Assembly: GCA_951406725.2 (NCBI GenBank)
Contig: OX597814.1
Coordinates: 108,624,001-108,688,000 of the forward strand
Direction: 5' to 3'
Length of the DNA: 64,000 bases
Source of the DNA: Octopus vulgaris
Taxonomy: Eukaryota
Below are positions 9,711-56,562 of this stretch, one piece after another. The notes under the pieces were generated by a model. It ran no database searches. It was not told the DNA's origin and worked only from the letters and a program-made list of their open reading frames with translations. A program made the translations under genes and the position numbers. Positions within the stretch are counted from its first letter, which is position 1. Every line of letters starts with the position of its first letter.

Positions 9711-11065
9711 ACACAATGTTCTAACGGTTTATTTACAAATGTCTAATTATGAGAGAAACATCATGGATGAATTTGTAATGTGATCGGTTGAGAAAGCAAG
9801 TGACTTCCAAATAGAATTTATGGCCACTAACAACATTCGTTTGCTGTAATGCATGTAACGAAGCCAAATGAGATTAAAGATGCTCGTTTCTTGAGATTTA
9901 TTGTAATAGGTGTTATTAACATATTGATTGTTCAAGAAGTGCATTGTCTTCCACATCACTGATGGAATGACCAAAGTGTAGGAGACTAATTGTGGTCATA
10001 AGACTAATCTTGCTATTCCTAGATTACGTACAAACAGATGGAATCGCTCCAGAACTCATTGACCAAAGTGTAAAAGAGAGCGGGGCACAAAATTTAATTC
10101 TGCTTCAGTTTTAACCAACTTAATAGAAATGTCTTCTGTTATAATTCCGTCATCATCATCGTCATTGTTTAACATCTGCTTTCCATGCTGGCATGGGTTG
10201 GACGGCTTGACTGAGAGCTGGCAAGCCAGAAGGCTGTACCAGGCTCCAACCTGATCTGGTAATGTTTCTACAGCTGGATGACTTTCCTAACACCAACCAC
10301 TCTGAGAGTGCAGTGAGTGCTTTTTACATGTCATTTGCATGAGGGCCAGTCAGGCGGCACTGGCATCAACCATGCTTGAATGGTGCCTTTTACATTCCAC
10401 TGGCACAGGACAGTCAGTTGGCACTGGCATCGACCACACTCAAATGGTGCTTTATATGTGCCACTGGCACGGGACCAGTCAGGCAACACTAGCATTGACC
10501 ATGCTTGAATGGTTCTTTTTACATGTCACTGGCACAGGACCAGTCAGGCAGCACTGGCATCAACCACGCTGGATGTGTTTATTTTAATGATCCTGGAAGT
10601 ATGGAAAACAAAACCGATCCTGGCAAGATTTGAACTTAGAATGTAAAGGTCTGTTATTAAAAACTGCTGGCATTTTATTGAATGTCCTAAGGATTTCTGC
10701 TGACCAAAGTAGCACCAGAACTAATTATTGATTTCAAATTTTAGTACAAGACCAGTAAGTAGTGTCAGTTGATTACATTGACTTCAATATGCAACTGGTA
10801 CTTAATTTATTGACACTGAAAGGCAAAGTCAAGCTAGGCAGAACTTGAACCCAGAATGTAAAGACAGACAAAATGCCACTAAGCATTTTTCCCAGTGTGC
10901 TAACCATTCTGCCAGCCTTACCACAACTAATTGTTGAACACATGAAATGCAAATACTAATGATCTGGTAATTTTCTTGTTTTCTATAATTAACATAAGAT
11001 TTAAATCACTCTACCAGAGGATTCTACCAGATCACTTGTCACCACTCACACACACACACAAGCCT

Positions 11066-12470
11066 CCTGGCTTCCCAGACCCCAATCTGATCTGGCAGTG
11101 TTTCTACAGCTGGATGCCCTTCCTAACGCCAACCACTCCGTGAGTGTAGTGGATCCTTTTTACGTACCACTGGCAGAGGAGCCAGGGGAAGCTGGCAGCA
11201 GCCATGATCGGTTGGTGCTTTTTATGTGCTACCGGCATGGAAGCCAGTCAAGGCGGCACTGGCATCGGCCACGTTCAGATGGTGCTTTTTATGTGCCACC
11301 GGCACAGGTATCACAACTACAACTTCCATTTGATATTTATTTTGATGTTGGTGTACTTGACTCAATAGGTCTCCTCAAGCACAGCAGGTCACCCTACAAT
11401 CCAAGATAGGCACAGCAGGTCGTTCTGCAATCCAAGGTACTTTGGATGGCTGGGGCTGCTATGTGAAACTGGTGCGGAAACAGCAATGAACTCACATTAT
11501 TTGTTGGGTCTTTGCAGTCACAGCATATCTCCAGATATCCCAGTCTTTCGTCATTGCCTCTATGAGGCCCTGCGTTCGAAGGTCATGCTTGACCACCTCA
11601 TCCATGTCTTCCTGGGTCTACCTCTCCCCCAAATTCCTTCAACTGTTTGGGAGTGGCACTTCTTCGCACATCTCTCCTCATCCATCCACAGTACATGACC
11701 ATACCAGCACAAATATCTCTCTTGCATGCCACATCTGATGCTTCTTATGTCCAGCATTTCTCTCAGGGTGCTTACACACTGTCATGCATGGACACTGCCA
11801 TTACACATCCAGCTGATCATGCTAGCTTAATTTCTTTCAAGCCTACATATGTCCTCTGCAGTCACAGCCCATGTTTCACTACCGTGAAGCATGGCAGTTC
11901 GCACACATGCACCGTTCAATCTACCTTTCACTCTGAGTGAGAGACCCTTTGTCACCAGTAGGGGAAGAAGCTTTCTAAACTTTGCCCAGGCTATTCTTAT
12001 TCTAGTGGTGACACTCTCTGAGCATCCACCTCCACTACTAACTTGGTCACCTAGGTAGCGGAAACTATCAACTAAATCTAGTTTCTCCCTCTGGAGTGTA
12101 ATGGAATCTATTTTCTGAGTATCAATGGTGTCTATTGCCCCTGTGCATCTGCTGCACACGAAAGCTATCTTCTCGGTTAATTTTCCTCTGATGGTGCTGC
12201 ACCTCTTACGTGTCCATAGCTTACACTGGGTACATCTTATGGAGTTTCTACAGATCGAGCAGGGCCACCTACCTGATGGGGTGTGTGATGAGTTCGCCTT
12301 CCTACTTACTATAACTTTGGTCTTTGCTACATTTACTCTAAGGCCTTTTGATTCTAAACCTAGCTTCCACACCCGAAATTTCTTTTCTAGTTCCGGTAGT
12401 GATTCTGCTATGAGGGCCAGGTCATCAGCATAGAGGAGCTCCCAGGAGCAACCCGTCTTGAATTCCTTTG
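11066..12470 (-). mobile_element. RTE-clade LINE fragment, related subfamily with a different 3'UTR
   Basis: ELLYADDLAL...GLRVNVAKTKV...DSFRYLGDQV...WYGHV...RGRPRKTW, with frameshifts. Confidence 0.9.
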
Positions 12471-12892
12471 TTATTGGTTATATATATATATATATATATA
12501 TATTTCTGGCACATAAAAAGCACCCACTACACTCTTGGAGTGGTTGGCATTAGGAAGGGCATCCAGCTGTAGAAACATTGCCAGATGAGATTGGAGCCTG
12601 GTGCAGCCGCTGGCCCTCCAGATCTCTGTCAAACCATCAAACCCATGCCAGCATGGAAAACAGACGTTAAACAATGATGATGATATAAATATATATATAT
12701 GCATGCGAAGGTCTTCTTTCAGCTTCCTACCAAATCCACTCTCAAGCCTTTCGTTAGTCTGGGGCTGTAGATGAAGACACAAGCCCAAAGTGCCATACTC
12801 CTTAACCATATATTGTACCATTCTTTTTATCTCTGGTGTCTACTTTGACTCCTATTAGAATTGCACCAAATTAACCAAATTGGTTCCCTACA

Positions 12893-14523: not shown

Positions 14524-14738
14524 TGGCGAGCTGGCGAGCGGGCGAAATGCTTAGCTGTATTTCGTCTGCCGTTACGTTCTGAGTTCAAATTCCGCCGAGG
14601 TCGACTTTGCCTTTCATCCTTTCGGGGTCGATAAATTAAGTACCAGTTACGCACTGCGGTCGACGTAATCGACTTAATCCGTTTGTCTGTCCTTGTTTGT
14701 CCCCTCTGTGTTTAGTCCCTTGTGGGTAGTAAAGAAAT
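14524..14738 (+). mobile_element. tRNA-related SINE (family 2)
   Basis: GGCGAGCTGGC...GAGTTCAAATTCC (B-box like)...GCCTTTCATCCTTTCGGGGTCGAT. More than 10 copies, e.g. 10735-10925, 24645-24848, 37930-38145, 57205-57615, 61190-61400. Confidence 0.8.
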
Positions 14739-15287: not shown

Positions 15288-15348
<61 letters not shown>

Positions 15349-15739
15349 AAAACAATAAAAAATCTCTGGGCGAGATATAAACAGTAACTGCTCTATAACA
15401 TAAGAGGGATCAGCCATCTGAATGTGGCTAGGGTCAGGGCGGGGTGTGGGGGTGTTACTGATGCATTTAGCCCCAGGCGAACATCGACGTCACCAGAAGA
15501 GCTGACACCATCTCAGTGTCCTTGCCAGCCAGCAAAGGGAGATCAGCCTCCCCGAAGATACGGATACTACACACGGACCGGTTTCGAGGTTATTGCCTAG
15601 AGCAGTTACTGTTTATATCTCGCCCAGAGATTTTTTATTGTTTTCGAGCAGATTTTCTACGCCAGTGACTGTGGTTACTGTGAAAATCTATATATATCCA
15701 GCCGGTAGAGGAAGTCCCTCAACGAAGAGCGGTGCTTAC

Positions 15740-15782
15740 CATACGTTGACAAGAGGCAATAACCTCGAAACCGGTCCATGTG
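15740..15782 (+). ncRNA. Minimal type-I hammerhead ribozyme, U3:A8 variant (copy 1, one stem-I mismatch)
   Basis: CATACG-TTGACAA-GAGG-caataa-CCTC-GAAA-CCGG-TC^CATGTG; predicted cut after 15776. Confidence 0.7.
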
Positions 15783-16098
15783 TAGTATCCGTATCTTCGG
15801 GGAGGCTGATCTCCCTTTGCTGGCTGGCAAGGACACCGAGATGGTGTCAGCTCTTCTGGTGATGTCGATGTTCGCCTGGGGCTAAATGCATCAGTAACAC
15901 CCCACCACCCCGCCCTGACCCTAGCCACATTCAGATGGCTGATCCCTCTTATGTTATAGAGCAGTTACTGTTTATATATCGCCCAGAGATTTATTATTGT
16001 TTTCGAACAGATTTTCTACGCCAGTGACTGTGGTTACTGTGAAAATCTATATATATCCAGCCGGTAGAGGAAGTCCCTCAACGAAGAGCGGTGCTTAC

Positions 16099-16141
16099 CA
16101 TACGTTGACAAGAGGCAATAACCTCGAAACCGGTCCGTGTG
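16099..16141 (+). ncRNA. Minimal type-I hammerhead ribozyme, U3:A8 variant (copy 2, intact)
   Basis: CATACG-TTGACAA-GAGG-caataa-CCTC-GAAA-CCGG-TC^CGTGTG: 6-bp stem I, 4-bp stem II, palindromic stem III (ACCGGT), GUC triplet; predicted cut after 16135. Confidence 0.8.
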
Positions 16142-16517
16142 TAGTATCCGTATCTTCGGGGAGGCTGATCTCCCTTTGCTGGCTGGCAAGGACACCGAGA
16201 TGGTGTCAGCTCTTCTGGTGACGTCGATGTTCGCCTGGGGCTAAATGCATCAGTAACAACCCCACCACCCCGCCCTGACCCTAGCCACATTCAGATGACT
16301 GATCCCTCTTATGTTATATATATATATAAATCCTTAAAATCCTTAAAAATGTTTCAGCCCGAAGGCTGAGGCCATGCATCGCTACATATATATACACACA
16401 CATATATATATAGAGAGAAAGAGAGGAGGGAGAGAGTTACTAGAGATCTAATATCATAGACATTGGTCTGTATATGACAGGAAGTTTGAATCACAGAACC
16501 AAAGGTGGTCACAGATG

Positions 16518-25954: not shown

Positions 25955-26095
25955 GCAATAATAAATCTTTGAACGAGGTATAAACAGTAGCTGCATGACA
26001 ATGTGAAGTATATTTGCCACTAAAGGTGGATGCTACTGTAGTTTGTAGCCCTAGGAGAACATCTTCTCCAGCTGGCTATTGACACACTTTCTGTG

Positions 26096-26133
<38 letters not shown>

Positions 26134-41172: not shown

Positions 41173-43573
41173 GTATCAGCATGTTTAATTTGAAAGATTT
41201 CCTCCACAGTAGTAAAAATTGTTTGCCAACATAACATGGCAGTCCTGGTTTAGGACTAATGTTGCTGTAATGTTGCTGTAACCTCAGGAGACATCTTCTC
41301 CAGCTGGGTATACGACATGATCTGTGTCCTTATATTTTCGAACAAGGGAATCTAGCACCCCCACTCAGCTCAAAACAATATGTTTATCACAATTTCTGGG
41401 TTATTTCTTCCACAGTTTGAACAGTTTTTGTTGCATAACAAAAACTTTAAAAACTGTCCTGACAACAGTATGTCACAATTCTTCTTGGTTTTATGTCGGT
41501 ACAACCTACCACTTCTCTATGCAATGGCTTTTTTTAGTACTGACCCCTTGTTCCCCAGAGTAAACCCTGTGCCCTGAATTACTTGCACGTCATTGTTACT
41601 CAGCTTAACCTCCCTCCAATCCCTCCTCACAGCTCTGTCACTTATGGCTATAATGACTGATATCTCACAACAACCAAACACTGCCAGAAAATTTTACTCA
41701 AGACATTATTCTTACAATTTGATAATTCTGTTAAGAAAGCGAAACTTCTTTCTTCTACCAACACAGATAACAACTCTTTTGCAATGAAGGAGGTTGTTGT
41801 TGTTGTTGTTATTGGAGTGTTGGTGTTGTTGAAGTGGTGGTGTTGATGTTGTTGGAGTGGTGGCGTTGGTGATGGTGTTGGTGGTGGTGGTGATGGTGGT
41901 GATGGTGATGGCACTGGCAGTAGTGGTTATGATGTGTGTTGTGGTGATGGTGGTAGCAGTGGTGTGTCAGTGGTGATGGTGGTGGCACTGGCAGTAGTGG
42001 TTATGATGTGTGTTGTGGTGATGGTAGTGGTGTGTCAGTGGTGGTGGTAGTGGTGGTGGTGGTGTCTGTGGTGGTAGTGGTGGTAGTGGTGGTGTAGATG
42101 GTGATGGTATCAGTGATGGTGGTGATGGTGATGGTGGTGGTGTCAGTGGTGAAGTTCGCGATGCTGTTCTTATAATATCCCCCTCCACCACGACAACCAC
42201 CTGCTCTACTAATCAGGTCACCCAGATTACAGAAAACCTCTCTATGACATTTAATTATTAGCCATCTGTATTTTTTAAATATTTTATAGACTTCCTCTCA
42301 ATGAAGTTTCTACTCCTAAATATTCTTCTATATCACTGGGTGCACCTAAATATATGGGTCCTCCCCCCATTCTATCTGAGAACCCCAGAATTGACACCCA
42401 TTGTGGAAGCTCAATAAATAGTGTTGACTTCTTACTTGTCCCGTTTCTGTATGTGACACAGGCCCTTTATAAGCTCTATGTAACCCCTACTCTCTAAGCT
42501 CTAAATATCCAAAGACTGTGAAGACATATGGCTTAATGGTTAGGGTATTTAGCTCACAGTCCTAAGGTTATGAGTTCAATTCTTGGTGGTATCTTGCACT
42601 CTTGAGCAAGACCCTTTATTTCACATTGCTGCAGTTCACTCAGCTCACAAAAAGTGTGTTTTACCTGTATTTCAAAGGGACAGCCTTGTCATTCTGTGTC
42701 ATGCTGAAAATCCTTGAGAACTGCATTAAGAGTACAAACGTCTGAGGAGTACTCAGCCACTTGCACATTAATTTCACAAGCAGGCTGTTCTTTTGATTGG
42801 GTCAACTGGAACACTTGTCATCGTAACCAATGGACTGTCTGTATATCCATAGACCAATTGGTGATATCCATAGCTAGGAAGGCAGTATCCATAGCTACCA
42901 TATGAAGAGAGAGGAATTGACCCTTTAGCATTCAGATTCGGAGTGGTTGGCATTAGGAAGGGCATCCAGCTGTAGAAACTCTGCCAGATCAAGATTGGAG
43001 TCTGGTGCAGCCATCTGGTTCACCAGCCCTAAGTCAAACTGTCCAACCCATACTAGCTTGGAAAGCGGACATTAAATGATGATGATGATGATGATGATGA
43101 TTTCTTTGTTAAATGCAATGCTTATTTATTCACATTGTTTTGAATTAATCATGCATTACATCACAGCTTTGAGATTTTGATGATGATCAACATCATCATT
43201 GTCTAACATCTGCTTTCCATGCTGGCATGGGTTGGATGGTTTGACTGAGGACTGGTGAGGCAAAAGGCTGCACCAGACTCCAATCCAATCCAATCCAATC
43301 GGGCAATGTTTCTACAGCTGGATGCCCTACCTAACACCAACTACTCTGAGAGTATAGTGAGTGATTTTTATGTGCTACCAGCACAAGGGCCAGTCAGGCA
43401 GTACTTGAATGGTGCTTTTTATGTGCCACTAGCACACAAGCCAGTCAGGCAGCACTGGCATTGACCACACTCGAATGGTGCTTTTTATGTGCCACTGACA
43501 CGGGACCAGTCAGACAGCACTGGCATCAACCATGCTCGAATGGCGCTTTTTATCTGCCAACATTGTAAGAGAG

Positions 43574-45667: not shown

Positions 45668-48330
45668 TAGAAGACAACTGGACGTTTCTAAGGGACAACC
45701 TGCTGAGAGCCACTGACCAGATCTGTGGCTTGTGCAAAGTCCCCTCTCGACCTAGAATAACGTGATGGTGGAACAATGTTGTAGACAGGGCTATTAGAGA
45801 AAAGGGACAGGCTTGGAAGGACTGGTAAAATGGGGGTAGCAGGGAATTGTATCAGACTGCCAAAAGAGAAGCTAGGAGACAGGTTTATTTAGCCAGAGGG
45901 TAAGCAGATAAGAAAAAATTTGCCAATGTTCTGCGCCGTGTGGACCAAAGACTGGAGGTGTTTCGCGTTGCAAGACAGTGTGTGAGAGAGAATCGTGATG
46001 TGGTAGGAGAGAAGTGTGTTCGCATGGAAGATGGTTCACTTGCGCTAAATGAGGATGCAAAGAGAGAGGTTTGGAGACGCCACTATGAAAGGTTGCTGAA
46101 TAAAGAAAATGAATGGGATAAAGAGAGTCTGCCGAATGTTGACCCAACAGAGGGACCAGCTATCCGAGTTGATAGTTCCTTGGTAGTTAAGGCAATTAGA
46201 AGCATGAAGACAGGGAAAGCCCCAGGCCCATCAGGAATCACTACAGAGATGCTCAAAATATCTGGTAGTGTCGGCTATAGCCTAGTCACCCGTATAGTTA
46301 ATCAGGTGATACACTGGTGTAGCAGCATAATAGTCAACTGCTACAAAGGTAAAGGTGACACCCTAGATACAAATAATTACAGAGGTATCAAGCTGTTGGA
46401 TCAGGTGATGAAGGTTACGGAGAGGGTCATAGCCCAACTAATTAGAGAGAGAGTTAGTTTAGATGAGATGCAGTTTGGGTTCGTGCCAGGGAAAAGTACC
46501 ACTGATGCTATATTCCTGGTAAGGCAGCTGCAGGAGAAATACCTAGCCAAAGATAAGCCAAAGATAACCTGGCTTTTGTTGACATGGAGAAAACCTTCGA
46601 CAGGATCCCCCAATCCCTTATCTGGTGGTCAATGAGGAAACTAGGGATAGATGAATGGTTAGTGAGAGCTGTGCGAGCCATGTACAGGACGCTGCTAGTA
46701 AGGTGAGGGTTGGCAACGAGTACAGTGAAGAATTCTGGGTAGAGGTAGGGGTCCACCAAGGCTCAGTCCTCAGCCCCCTCCTATTTATCATAGTCCTCCA
46801 GGCAATAACGGAGGAATTCAAGACAGGATGCCCTTGGGAACTCCTCTATGCTGATGACCTTGCTCTAATTGCTAAGTCACTATCAGAACTGGAGGAGAAG
46901 TTTCAGTTGTGGAAACAAGGATTAGAATCGAAGGGCCTTAGAGTCAATCTAGCTAAAACCAAAGTCGTAATCAGTAGGAAGGTAGACAAATCACAAACGC
47001 CTTCAGGTAGATGGCCCTGCTCGATCTGTAGAAAAGGTGTAAGTAGAAACTCTATAAGATGCACCAAGTGTAAGCTATGGACACATAAGAGGTGCAGCAA
47101 TGTCAAAGGAAGGCTAACTAGGAAGATGGTTTTTGTATGTGGCAGATGCTCAGGAACAATAAACACTGAAAATGCTCTGAGACCAACTTCCGTCACTTTC
47201 CAGGGAGAAAAACTAGAAATAGTTGATAGCTTCCGTTACCTAGGTGACCAAGTCAGCAGCGGGGGCGGGTGTGCTGAAAGTGTAACTGCTAGAGTAAGAA
47301 TAGCTTGGGCAAAGTTCAGAGAGCTCTTACCTCTGCTGGTGACAAAAGGCCTCTTGCACAGAGTAAAAGGCAGACTGTATGATGCGTGTGTACGAACAGC
47401 CATGCTACATGGCAGTGAAACATGGGCCGTGACTGCTGAGGATATGCGTAAGCTCACAAGAAATGAAGCCAGTATGCTCCGATGGATGTGTAATGTCAGT
47501 GTTCATACTCGACAGAGTGTAAGTACCTTGAGAGAAAAGCTGGACCTAAGAAGCATCAGTTGTGGTGTGCAAGAGAGATGATTGCGCTGGTATGGGCATG
47601 TGGCGAGAATGGATGAAGATAGTTGTGTGAAAAAGTGCCACACCCTAGCGGTTGAGGGAACCTGCGGAAGAGGCAGACCCAGGAAAACCTGGGACGAGGT
47701 GGTGAAGCACGACTTCGAACTTTAGGTCTCACTGAGGAAATGACTAGAGACCGAGACCTCTGGAAGTATGCTGTGCGCGAGAAGACCCGGCAGGACAAGT
47801 GAGACCATAACCGGTGGCCTTCTACATGGGATGGAGCCAGCCTACGTATGCATACCTTCCCTTCTTGGGACACAAAACTCTACTTGTGAAGACCTGTTGA
47901 GGCAAGTGAGGATCAGAATCGAAATCGATCAATGGAAATTGCAGCTGAGTTACCAGTGCCGGTGGCATGTAAGAGAACCATCCGTTCGTGACCGTTGCCA
48001 GCGCCGCCCTGACTGGCCTCATGCCGGCTGCACATAAAAAGCACCATCCGTTCGTGTCCGTTGCTAGCCTCGCCTGGCCCCCATGCCAGCGGCACGCAAA
48101 AGCACCATCCGTTTGTGGCCGTATGCCAGCCTCGTCTGGCACCTGTGCGGGTGGCACGTAAAAAGCACCCACTACACTCACGGTGTGGTTGGCGTTAGGA
48201 AGGGCATCCAGCCGTAGAAACACTGCCAAATCAGACTGGGCCTGATGCAGCCTTCTGGCTTCACAGACCCCAGTTGAACTGTCCAACCCATGCTAGCATG
48301 GAAAGCGGACGCTAAATGATGATGATGATG
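45668..48330 (+). mobile_element. RTE-clade LINE, 5'-truncated, complete but disrupted RT
   Basis: GKAPGPSGI, NYRGIKLL, QFGFVPGKSTTD, GVHQGSVLSPLLF, YADD, FRYLG, RGRPRKTW; stops and frameshifts; 3'UTR subrepeats; (GAT)n tail. Confidence 0.95.
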
Positions 48331-54834: not shown

Positions 54835-55862
54835 ATTGGTTTCAAATTTTGTCACAAGGCCAGCAATTTCGGGGGAGGGGGTAAGTTGATTACATCGCCC
54901 CTCTTCTCCCAGTGTTCAACTGGTACTTGTTTTTATCAACCTTGAAAGGATAAAAGGCAAAAATCAACCTCAGTGGAATTTGAACTCAGAATGTAAGGAC
55001 AGACAAAATGCCACGAAACATTTTGCACAACTTGTTGCCTTATTTCTAATATAAGTATTGGTTTCAAATTTTAGCACAAGGCCAGCAATTTTGGGGGTAG
55101 GAGACTAGTTGATTACATTAACCCCAGTGCTCAACTGGTACTCCTTGAAAGGAGAAAAGGTAAAGTGGACCTCAGCGGAATTTGAACTCAGAACTTAATG
55201 TTAGCACACTGAGTGAAATGTTTAGCGGTATTTTGTCTGTCTTTATGTTCTGGGTTCAAATTCTGCCAAGGTCAACTTTTCCTTTCATCTTTTGGAGTCG
55301 ATAAATTAAGTACCAGTTGCATACATGGGTCGATCTAATTGACTGGCTCCCTCCCCCAAAATTTCGGGCCTTGTGTCTAGAATAGAAAAGAATATTTAAA
55401 ATAACTAAGGGGGCGAGCTGGCAGAATCGTTAGCACACCGGGCAAAATGCTCAGCAGTATTTCGTATGTCGCTATATTCTGAGTTCAAATTCTGCTGAGG
55501 TCAACTTTGCCTTTCATCCTTTCGGGTCAATAAATTAAGCACCAGTTGTGTACTGCAGGTGATCTAATCAACTGGTCCCCTCCCCAAAGATTGCAGGCCT
55601 TGTGCCTAGAGTAGAAAAGAATATTTAAAACAACTAAGGTGGCGAGCTGGCAGAAATGTTAGCACACCGGGTGAAATGCTTGGCGGTATTTCATCTGTCT
55701 TTGTTCTGAGTTCAAATTCCGCCAAGGTTGACTTTGCCTTTCATCCTTTCAGGATCAATGAATTAAGCATGAGTTGTGTACTGTGGTCGGTCTAGTTGAC
55801 TGGCTCCCTCCCCACAAATTTCGGTCCTTGTGCCTAGAGTAAAAAAGAATATTTAAAACAAC
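54835..55862. mobile_element. Cluster of five family-2 SINEs: two minus, then three plus in tandem (~229-bp period)
   Basis: Linker AGAAAAGAATATTTAAAA(T/C)AACT follows each plus copy (~55384, 55614, 55841). Confidence 0.85.
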
Positions 55863-56562
55863 TTTGCTCATAAGACCTGGGGTGATTTTTTAATCTTTTT
55901 TTTTGTTTTGCTATTAAATGTGTGTCTTCAATGCCATCAAATACAGGAAATTTCTTGTTTTCCATTTTGGAATTTATGTGACAGTTTTCCAAGATTAGAA
56001 CCAGGACATTTACACAGAAGAACTTGCAAAAAGTCTTCAATTCCATCTGTACAATATTTCCAAGCAATTATTATATTGAATTCCTGTTATTTTATTTATT
56101 TTTTTTTTTTGTTGTTGTTGTTGTTGAGTTTGTTTTAAATATGCTACAGTTGCAATGAAATCTGCTAAGACAATTTGAAATACTAAGAACTGCAAACTCA
56201 TCAAAACACTAATTATATTATAAAACCACAGATTAATTGCATGCGTATTAGATTGTCTCCTTGAATACCTGACAACTGAAATATTGCTAAAACGAGATGA
56301 CAACAACAGGTGTTTTCAGCACTAATTGGCCACAGTATCAATTAGCATAACCTAATTAGTAACATATCAGATTTCAAATTGCAAACTGATATGTTACAGA
56401 AAATTAAAATAAAGAAAAAAAAAGAAGAAAAAATGTATTTAATTAGTTTTTTTCAAGCTTATTTGCCATTATCCTACTGATGCTGTGGCATCATGTTGTT
56501 GTTTTGACTGTTATTGATGTTGTTGTTGTTATTGTCTTTTACTAATTGTGTCCATAGTTGAA

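What the first reader, a model, noticed from the sequence alone, without database searches (positions are those of the whole stretch)
15345..16317. Candidate retrozyme: 359-nt tandem dimer with U3:A8-variant hammerheads, predicted to release a small (circular) RNA
Seen: two near-identical non-coding units plus an inverted 254-bp partial copy, inserted in (TA)n. Each unit holds CATACG-TTGACAA-GAGG-caataa-CCTC-GAAA-CCGG-TC^C(G/A)TGTG, and the predicted cuts at 15776 and 16135 are exactly 359 nt apart. Established: the HHR C3-G8 tertiary pair tolerates the compensatory U3-A8 swap; minimal type-I HHRs with palindromic stem III act as dimers; metazoan retrozymes are tandem arrays of a few hundred nt that yield circRNAs and are linked to Penelope-like elements. 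Inference: this is a young PLE-mobilised retrozyme whose monomer is 15777-16135. Searches requiring CUGANGA would miss it. I cannot verify whether the family has been described.
Basis: partly seen in the sequence, partly recalled or inferred. Interest (0 to 1): 0.88.

Follow-up and report, generated by a model that had tools for sequence, protein, structure and literature searches.

The report
Penelope-spread retrozyme with U3:A8 hammerhead
This is one of many scattered copies of a short non-coding jumping repeat that carries a predicted self-cutting RNA motif and was likely pasted in by a Penelope-type enzyme; the element type and the swapped core pair are already known, but sister subfamilies with a mismatched core pair also spread, which offers a natural test of whether cutting is needed.

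Summary
Observation confirmed: two 359/360-nt units, an inverted 250-nt arm, (TA)n flanks and a type I hammerhead with U3:A8. The motif is real: its stems covary across 15 family variants. The element is non-coding and dispersed (122 exact motif copies). Its insertions carry Penelope-like-element (PLE) marks: in 39 of 45 two-armed insertions one arm ends at the unit end and the other at a ~45-nt tail. It is a new member of the metazoan non-LTR retrozymes; U3:A8 and the PLE link are published, and this scan noted related repeats elsewhere in this genome. Corrections: the hammerhead is canonical rather than minimal, and unit 1's cut site has a stem I mismatch. Added here: none of the 4 of 348 copies lacking the preceding C17 starts at the cut, so the copied RNA likely was a circle or uncut tandem RNA. 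Subfamilies with C3·A8 (19 loci) and U3·G8 (45 loci) also spread. Cleavage, circles and the partner enzyme are untested.

The parts
15296..15344 (.). (TA)n target, left flank
15349..15395 (-). PLE-type tail (unit positions q1-47) ending the inverted arm
   Evidence: tail ends q41-58 recur across loci
15396..15598 (-). Inverted, 5'-truncated partial unit (q157-360); begins inside the hammerhead and lacks its 5' core
15598..15956 (+). Unit 1, 359 nt, non-coding
   Evidence: no Pfam match for the overlapping frame 15506-15859
15740..15782 (+). Hammerhead 1 (type I; U3 15746, A8 15751; palindrome 15770-15775; predicted cut after 15776; C·A mismatch at 15778 in stem I)
15777..16135 (+). Predicted cut-to-cut monomer, 359 nt (not shown to exist as RNA)
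   Evidence: folds at -112.9 kcal/mol, z -2.6 against 60 shuffles
15957..16316 (+). Unit 2, 360 nt; ends at the family's fixed 3' end (q360)
16099..16141 (+). Hammerhead 2 (U3 16105, A8 16110; palindrome 16129-16134; predicted cut after 16135; intact stems)
16317..16327 (.). (TA)n target, right flank

Best explanation
This is a non-coding ~360-nt tandem repeat, dispersed through the genome, that carries a type I hammerhead motif and was likely inserted by the reverse transcriptase and endonuclease of a Penelope-like element, i.e. a non-LTR retrozyme. Shown: the anatomy, the absence of a joined reading frame, two fixed 3' ends about 45 nt apart, scattered 5' ends, (TA)n preference, 9-14-nt target duplications elsewhere, and covarying stems. 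Inferred: a tandem transcript pairs two palindromic stems III into a double hammerhead, which would cut out a unit-length RNA that is ligated into a circle. A Neptune/Nematis-type PLE protein would nick both strands of AT-rich DNA, prime at two internal sites on the RNA (unit end and tail end), and copy past the ligated cut site for a variable distance, giving one direct and one inverted arm. U3:A8 would act as an ordinary working alternative to C3:G8. I put PLE-mobilised retrozyme at about 0.9 and the circle as the usual template at about 0.6.
For: Dispersal: the 40 scored loci have full units 95-100% identical to unit 2, on many contigs. Anatomy in 82 loci and 129 arms: 119 of 129 3' ends lie at q345-360 or q41-58; 39 of 45 two-armed insertions have one end of each kind; 96 of 129 3' flanks are (TA)n. 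This matches the PLE tail and inverted copies described in PMC8557442 and the two RT start sites in PMC11167929. Duplications of 9-14 nt flank 9 of 25 insertions outside (TA)n (of 101 loci). Intact PLEs exist: 16 of 150 scored GIY-YIG hits lie in 781-aa frames, with RT, GIY-YIG and a CxxxxCxxC linker. At L114 a PLE RT fragment is joined without a spacer to sister family D. Read-through of the cut site: 344 of 348 copies of the post-cut 24-mer keep C17 before it, and the 4 others keep upstream hammerhead sequence; 108 of 129 arms are longer than a cut monomer allows. Selection on the motif: with the core left free, the invariant core is intact in 96 of the 100 listed copies (of 296), and the 4 exceptions are singletons (hand count). 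Stem III stays self-complementary in several different sequences. Mussel retrozymes of 350-390 bp give abundant circles (PMC7229834).
Against: No cleavage or circle data for this family. C3·A8 (27 copies, 19 loci) and U3·G8 (65 copies, 45 loci) subfamilies spread as single clades, and their arms are as long as those of paired subfamilies (only 8 and 10 loci). In Anolis Poseidon, hammerhead mutants did not affect insertion in vitro (PMC11167929). 8 of 9 Xenopus dimers did not cleave (10.64898/2026.07.22.740005). In the full window dimer the predicted ensemble gives the inter-unit stem III a probability of 0.0, so the active fold is not predicted to dominate. No PLE with DNA similarity to this unit was found, so the partner is not identified. 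Variants shared among units of one locus fit a circle and a homogeneous tandem RNA equally.
Confidence: 0.6

Rival explanations
1. Same PLE-mobilised element, but the enzyme copies uncut tandem transcripts. The hammerhead is slow, protein-assisted or regulatory, and is not needed for a burst of spread.
For: Mismatched-core subfamilies F and G spread to 19 and 45 loci with similar arm lengths. No insertion detected starting at the cut. Unprocessed RNA was the main substrate for Anolis Poseidon in vitro (PMC11167929). Most Xenopus dimers were inactive (10.64898/2026.07.22.740005).
Against: Only positions 3, 7 and 8, loop II, one stem III position and wobble-tolerant stem I positions show shared changes: 0 of 18 other core and stem II columns against 31.5% of columns outside the motif (biased, since many loci were found by patterns fixing those columns). 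The motif covaries across families about 60% identical. Copying only uncut transcripts with 5' truncation would shorten arrays each round (inference). U3·G8 is a wobble pair and may be active.
Confidence: 0.3
2. The units are only the terminal repeat (pLTR) left by heavily truncated copies of a coding PLE.
For: PLE pLTRs carry hammerheads, including a U3:A8 one behind the endonuclease gene of the 781-aa family. Most PLE insertions are 5'-truncated.
Against: In the 102 loci mapped (82) the sequence upstream of a full unit is the same unit's 3' part, an inverted arm or flank. The PLE fragments near L002, L187 and L259 are separated from the units by (TA)n and other sequence. The protein queries were of one PLE type only, and only 150 of 6136 GIY-YIG candidates were scored.
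Confidence: 0.07
3. A minisatellite amplified and moved at the DNA level (unequal crossing-over, excision and reinsertion), with a vestigial hammerhead.
For: Head-to-tail units, with arms up to about four units in the mapped loci.
Against: Fixed 3' ends with scattered 5' ends, tail asymmetry, inverted arms and target duplications are marks of target-primed reverse transcription.
Confidence: 0.03

Closest known systems
Metazoan non-LTR retrozymes (Cervera and de la Pena 2020, PMC7229834; mussel 350-390-bp repeats, axolotl HHR_Amex1 repeats)
   Same: Non-coding tandem units of similar size, canonical type I hammerhead, target duplications longer than 4 nt; 1-bp helix III with palindromic tetraloop as in axolotl Amex1.
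   Different: U3:A8 core; strong (TA)n targeting; inverted arms with a PLE tail, which I did not see described for retrozymes in the parts read (parts 2-3 of 6; supplement unreadable). Expression as circles is not shown here.
Vertebrate retrozymes as non-autonomous PLE derivatives (Li, Clavereau, Pollet 2026, bioRxiv 10.64898/2026.07.22.740005)
   Same: Same class and same proposed PLE dependence; monomers, dimers and short multimers.
   Different: Their link rests on co-occurrence and pLTR homology in Xenopus; here it rests on insertion anatomy, and no homologous pLTR was found. The main text names insects and a coral as their invertebrates (species table not seen).
U3-A8 hammerheads (Perreault et al. 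2011, PMC3088659; Schistosoma Cercyon PLE min-HHRs, PMC4209133)
   Same: Same compensatory swap of the 3-8 core pair.
   Different: Here it is in a canonical-layout retrozyme, and all four transition states of the pair occur as separately amplified subfamilies of one clade.
Penelope-like elements, Neptune/Nematis type (PMC8557442) and Anolis Poseidon (PMC11167929)
   Same: Partial tandems, inverted 5'-truncated copy, tail at one end only, microsatellite or AT-rich targets, 3' ends internal to the RNA and away from the hammerhead cut.
   Different: No reading frame; tail about 41-47 nt against the quoted 30-40.

Membership tests
Type I hammerhead ribozyme | Core U4 G5 A6, A9, G12 A13 A14, A15.1-U16.1, H17 | tested here: met
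   intact in 96 of 100 listed copies with the core left free (U16.1 and C17 fixed by the pattern)
Type I hammerhead ribozyme | Watson-Crick pair between positions 3 and 8 | tested here: met
   U3:A8 in both window units; not met in sister subfamilies F and G
Type I hammerhead ribozyme | Helices I-III supported by covariation | tested here: met
   94.9% of cells paired, 8 of 15 pairs change on both sides; unit 1 has one stem I mismatch
Type I hammerhead ribozyme | Match to an Rfam hammerhead model | tested here: not met
   C3:G8 relatives also give no match, so the test is weak
Type I hammerhead ribozyme | Site-specific self-cleavage | not testable with these tools
   Needs a bench assay
PLE min-HHR (PMC4209133) | Helix II larger than the canonical 4 bp, short helix I, little or no helix III | tested here: not met
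   Helix I 6 bp, helix II 4 bp, helix III 1 bp plus 4-nt palindrome
Non-LTR retrozyme | Short (150-450 bp) tandem units each with a type I hammerhead | tested here: met
Non-LTR retrozyme | Non-coding, multi-copy, dispersed | tested here: met
Non-LTR retrozyme | Target duplications longer than 4 nt when present | tested here: met
   9-14 nt in 9 of 25 non-(TA)n insertions; not discernible at this locus
Non-LTR retrozyme | Expressed as linear and circular unit-length RNA | not testable with these tools
   Only contigs were available, and tandem DNA gives the same junction as a circle
PLE-mobilised element | Tail at one end, inverted 5'-truncated copy, partial tandem | tested here: met
   39 of 45 two-armed insertions
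PLE-mobilised element | Sequence shared with an identified autonomous partner | tested here: inconclusive
   None among the PLE loci fetched; one chimeric PLE-family D insertion; only 150 of 6136 candidates scored
Autonomous PLE | RT plus GIY-YIG reading frame between pLTRs | tested here: not met

The most novel reading that the evidence does not exclude
In this genome retrozymes spread without needing a correctly paired catalytic core: lineages with C3·A8 and U3·G8 cores colonised 19 and 45 loci with full-length arms, and no copy starts at the cut site. The hammerhead would then be under long-term but not per-cycle selection, and the four matched subfamilies form a ready-made natural experiment on what hammerheads do for Penelope-type retrotransposition.
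Probability: 0.3. Interest if true: 0.62.

Novelty: new member of a known kind. Interest (0 to 1): 0.42.

Why it matters
What hammerheads do in PLEs and animal retrozymes, and which enzyme copies retrozymes, are open questions (PMC8557442, PMC11167929). This family gives locus-level evidence that a PLE-type enzyme inserts them and that linear cut monomers are not what gets integrated. It also supplies natural 80-92% identical units with all four states of the 3-8 pair, which can be compared in one cleavage and circularisation assay. The element class and the U3:A8 swap are not new.

Tried and rejected
Rfam: no hammerhead match; the other hits, mostly microRNA models on microsatellites, are all below their gathering scores. 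Expression: no RNA holder listed. Four runs guessed to be RNA were laid as contigs; they cannot show strand, ends or circles, and I draw no conclusion on expression. No DNA-run comparison of those variants is available. Partner search: the 781/771-aa PLE loci and the family next to L002 (25 loci) share no DNA similarity with the unit. A loose end seen in two runs was tested as a possible autonomous 5' end; it is a single family B insertion. Order of events at the 3-8 pair: the best tree nests the C3:G8 subfamily E inside U3:A8 lineages and F inside E, but holding all U3 rows together is not rejected (p-AU 0.158), so direction is unresolved; my first idea that F is the intermediate is not supported. 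Circle versus tandem template from within-locus variants: not discriminating. Pile-up of 5' ends at the cut: 2 of 118 within q175-185 against 3.7 expected. Literature: searches for octopus + hammerhead ribozyme, octopus/Penelope/non-autonomous/ribozyme and cephalopod + retrozyme listed no paper whose title or abstract start describes such a family. Repbase and Dfam could not be searched, and the supplements of PMC7229834 and of the 2026 preprint were not readable and may list it. Papers on 3-8 mutants and PLE dimers (Przybilski and Hammann 2007; Lunse et al.; Nelson and Uhlenbeck 2008; Martick and Scott 2006) are not held, and searches found nothing relevant, so the activity of C3·A8 and U3·G8 cores is undocumented here.

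Full report
Observation. The window holds an inverted arm (15349-15598, minus strand), two direct units (15598-15956 and 15957-16316, 98% identical) and (TA)n on both sides. Positions called q count from 15957; the cut falls at q179/180. The layout is helix I 6 bp, helix II 4 bp with a 6-nt loop, and helix III 1 bp with a palindromic 4-nt loop, which PMC4209133 calls the canonical metazoan type I form. Two intact segments cofold as the double hammerhead (-26.5 kcal/mol, the minimum-energy fold). For the window pair, the A at 15778 removes one stem I, and in the whole dimer transcript the inter-unit stem III has a predicted probability of 0.0. The same change recurs at 4 loci, at a CpG, so it is probably decay after insertion.

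The family. The genome has 2.8 Gb in 227 contigs; I take it to be an octopus from size and recalled repeats, which no call tested. A search with unit 2 scored 40 of 1545 candidates, with full units 95-100% identical. Exact motif counts are 122 for this subfamily, A, 27 for F and 65 for G; reversed controls gave 0. I mapped 82 loci of the clade (overlapping duplicates were dropped first, but L163 and L165 later proved identical and only L163 is counted there) and 20 more. Of 129 arms, 119 end at q345-360 or q41-58, and 96 have (TA)n at the 3' end. In 39 of 45 two-armed insertions one arm stops at the unit end and the other at the tail end. 5' ends are scattered. Of 101 loci, 76 have (TA)n on at least one side, and 9 of the other 25 show 9-14-nt duplications. 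No unit is joined to a reading frame (the queries were one PLE type).

Mobilisation. PMC8557442 (passages) describes partial tandems, an inverted truncated copy and a tail at one end only as PLE features. PMC11167929 (parts 1-2 of 4) shows that a PLE protein extends both nicked strands and starts at two internal RNA sites that bracket the tail. The ends seen here fit that. The genome has intact PLEs: 16 of 150 scored GIY-YIG hits are in 781-aa frames with RT, GIY-YIG and a cysteine linker of Neptune/Nematis type (clade not tested by a tree). None shares DNA with the unit. At L114 an RT fragment of another PLE family is joined directly to sister family D, a single hint at the partner.

Template. 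If cut linear monomers were copied, insertions would start at q180 and be at most 226 nt. 108 of 129 arms are longer than 230 nt (biased toward loci holding a whole motif). A genome-wide test without that bias: the 24 letters after the cut occur 348 times, 344 with C17 before them, and the other 4 still have hammerhead sequence upstream. A copy starting at the cut after a chance C would be missed. So the enzyme reads through the site, from a ligated circle or an uncut tandem RNA. Variants shared among the units and arms of one locus fit both. I favour circles because mussel retrozymes of this size make them (PMC7229834, parts 2-3 of 6) and because copying only truncated arrays would shorten them each round (inference).

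Is the hammerhead under selection? Related families were found by the tail (B), by chance (C, H) and by pattern (D, E, F, G, I). D is about 60% and E about 90% identical to A. Across 15 variants the stems covary and stem III stays self-complementary in several sequences. With the core left free, the first 100 of 296 matches are 65 U3:A8, 25 C3:G8 and 10 C3·A8, and the invariant core is broken only in 4 singletons (hand count; G is missed because its stem III differs). In 71 units, 0 of 18 core and stem II columns carry a shared change against 31.5% outside the motif, but ascertainment inflates this.

The 3-8 pair. With columns 3 and 8 masked, F (C3·A8) and G (U3·G8) are each one clade (99/98 and 100/100); the tree needs 4 changes at position 8 and 2 at position 3, and direction is unresolved (family C left out as a long branch, and the young A rows thinned to 8 of 23 of the first set). 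F occupies 19 loci and G 45 (hand counts). Their longest arms (medians 500 and 431 nt, 8 and 10 loci) are no shorter than those of paired subfamilies (409-455 nt). Either these cores still cut, or cutting is not needed for a burst of spread. In PMC11167929, C3G and G8C single mutants lost cleavage but not insertion. I could not read papers on the transition mismatches.

Comparison and novelty. The element meets the testable features of non-LTR retrozymes. Their PLE dependence is argued in bioRxiv 10.64898/2026.07.22.740005 (parts 1-3 of 5; supplements closed), where 1 of 9 dimers cleaved. Natural U3-A8 is reported in PMC3088659 (section 8 and passages), which cites earlier in vitro activity, and in PMC4209133 (parts 1-2 of 4). 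PMC6765202 was seen as passages. Searches listed no description of a cephalopod family; repeat databases were not searched. Earlier notes of this scan report similar repeats on other DNA of this genome and U3:A8 retrozymes in other genomes; a sequence look-up found nothing. They are unchecked AI notes and are not counted as support.

Verdict. Real, well supported, and a new member of a known kind. The added value lies in the insertion statistics and the four-state subfamily set. Interest 0.42.

Noticed in passing
window 25955-26099 (minus strand); L032, L047, L048: Truncated copy of an older sister family B (units about 357 nt, C3:G8 core, 8-nt palindromes) in (TA)n; it shares the tail with family A. 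40 scored copies are 79-100% identical.
   Followed up: partly
L069:1-285, L230-L244: Separate young family C, units about 360 nt, also U3:A8, with a different palindrome and the same tail and inversion pattern; 2724 first-look candidates.
   Followed up: partly
L091-L120, L132, L133: Family D, 353-nt units, canonical C3:G8 core, arrays of up to five; the commonest row among the first 100 of 577 matches.
   Followed up: partly
L114:1904-2804 and 1323-1903: Chimeric insertion: a PLE RT fragment and an inverted endonuclease fragment joined without a spacer to family D sequence. One case only.
   Followed up: partly
L058, L061, L064, L069, L075 (3' of the GIY-YIG frame): The 781-aa PLE family carries a U3:A8 hammerhead with a longer helix II near its 3' end, with the same 7-nt core and palindrome as family C; no wider DNA similarity to C.
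   Followed up: partly
L002:1080-1130 (minus), L071 3' region: Another PLE 3' end has a tiny hammerhead-like motif with a 2-bp helix II, an apparent A3:U8 pair and the same palindrome as family A. Read by eye only.
   Followed up: no
L081-L090: An upstream frame (479 residues stop to stop in L084, L086, L089), with no convincing Pfam match, overlaps the start of the 781-aa RT-endonuclease frame.
   Followed up: no
window 15995-16281, runs X1 and X5: Contigs of two studies of 'organism A' (guessed RNA) match unit 2 closely but read C at position 3 with A8 unchanged, while a contig of X9 keeps U3. This may be a further C3·A8 branch; no DNA control.
   Followed up: partly
window 15658-16046, run X2: One low-depth 390-nt contig has 26 differences, with 13 T>C among those listed for the run, as A-to-I editing of the opposite strand would give; the inverted arms could form double-stranded RNA. 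No DNA control.
   Followed up: no
L002, L069, L187, L259: PLE fragments and retrozyme copies sit in neighbouring (TA)n tracts as separate insertions, suggesting shared hot spots.
   Followed up: partly
L163 and L165 (G000:C1 about 67.41 and 67.47 Mb): Two identical units in opposite orientation with mirrored flanks: a local inverted duplication or an assembly duplicate.
   Followed up: no
window 11827-12477 (minus): Fragment of an unrelated reverse transcriptase frame, weak RVT_1 match.
   Followed up: partly
window 55200-55863; 10317-10570; 43403-43559; 47957-48169: Other tandem repeats with periods 229, 65, 65 and 62; the 229-nt unit looks like tandem copies of the short repeat at 14540-14738.
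   Followed up: no
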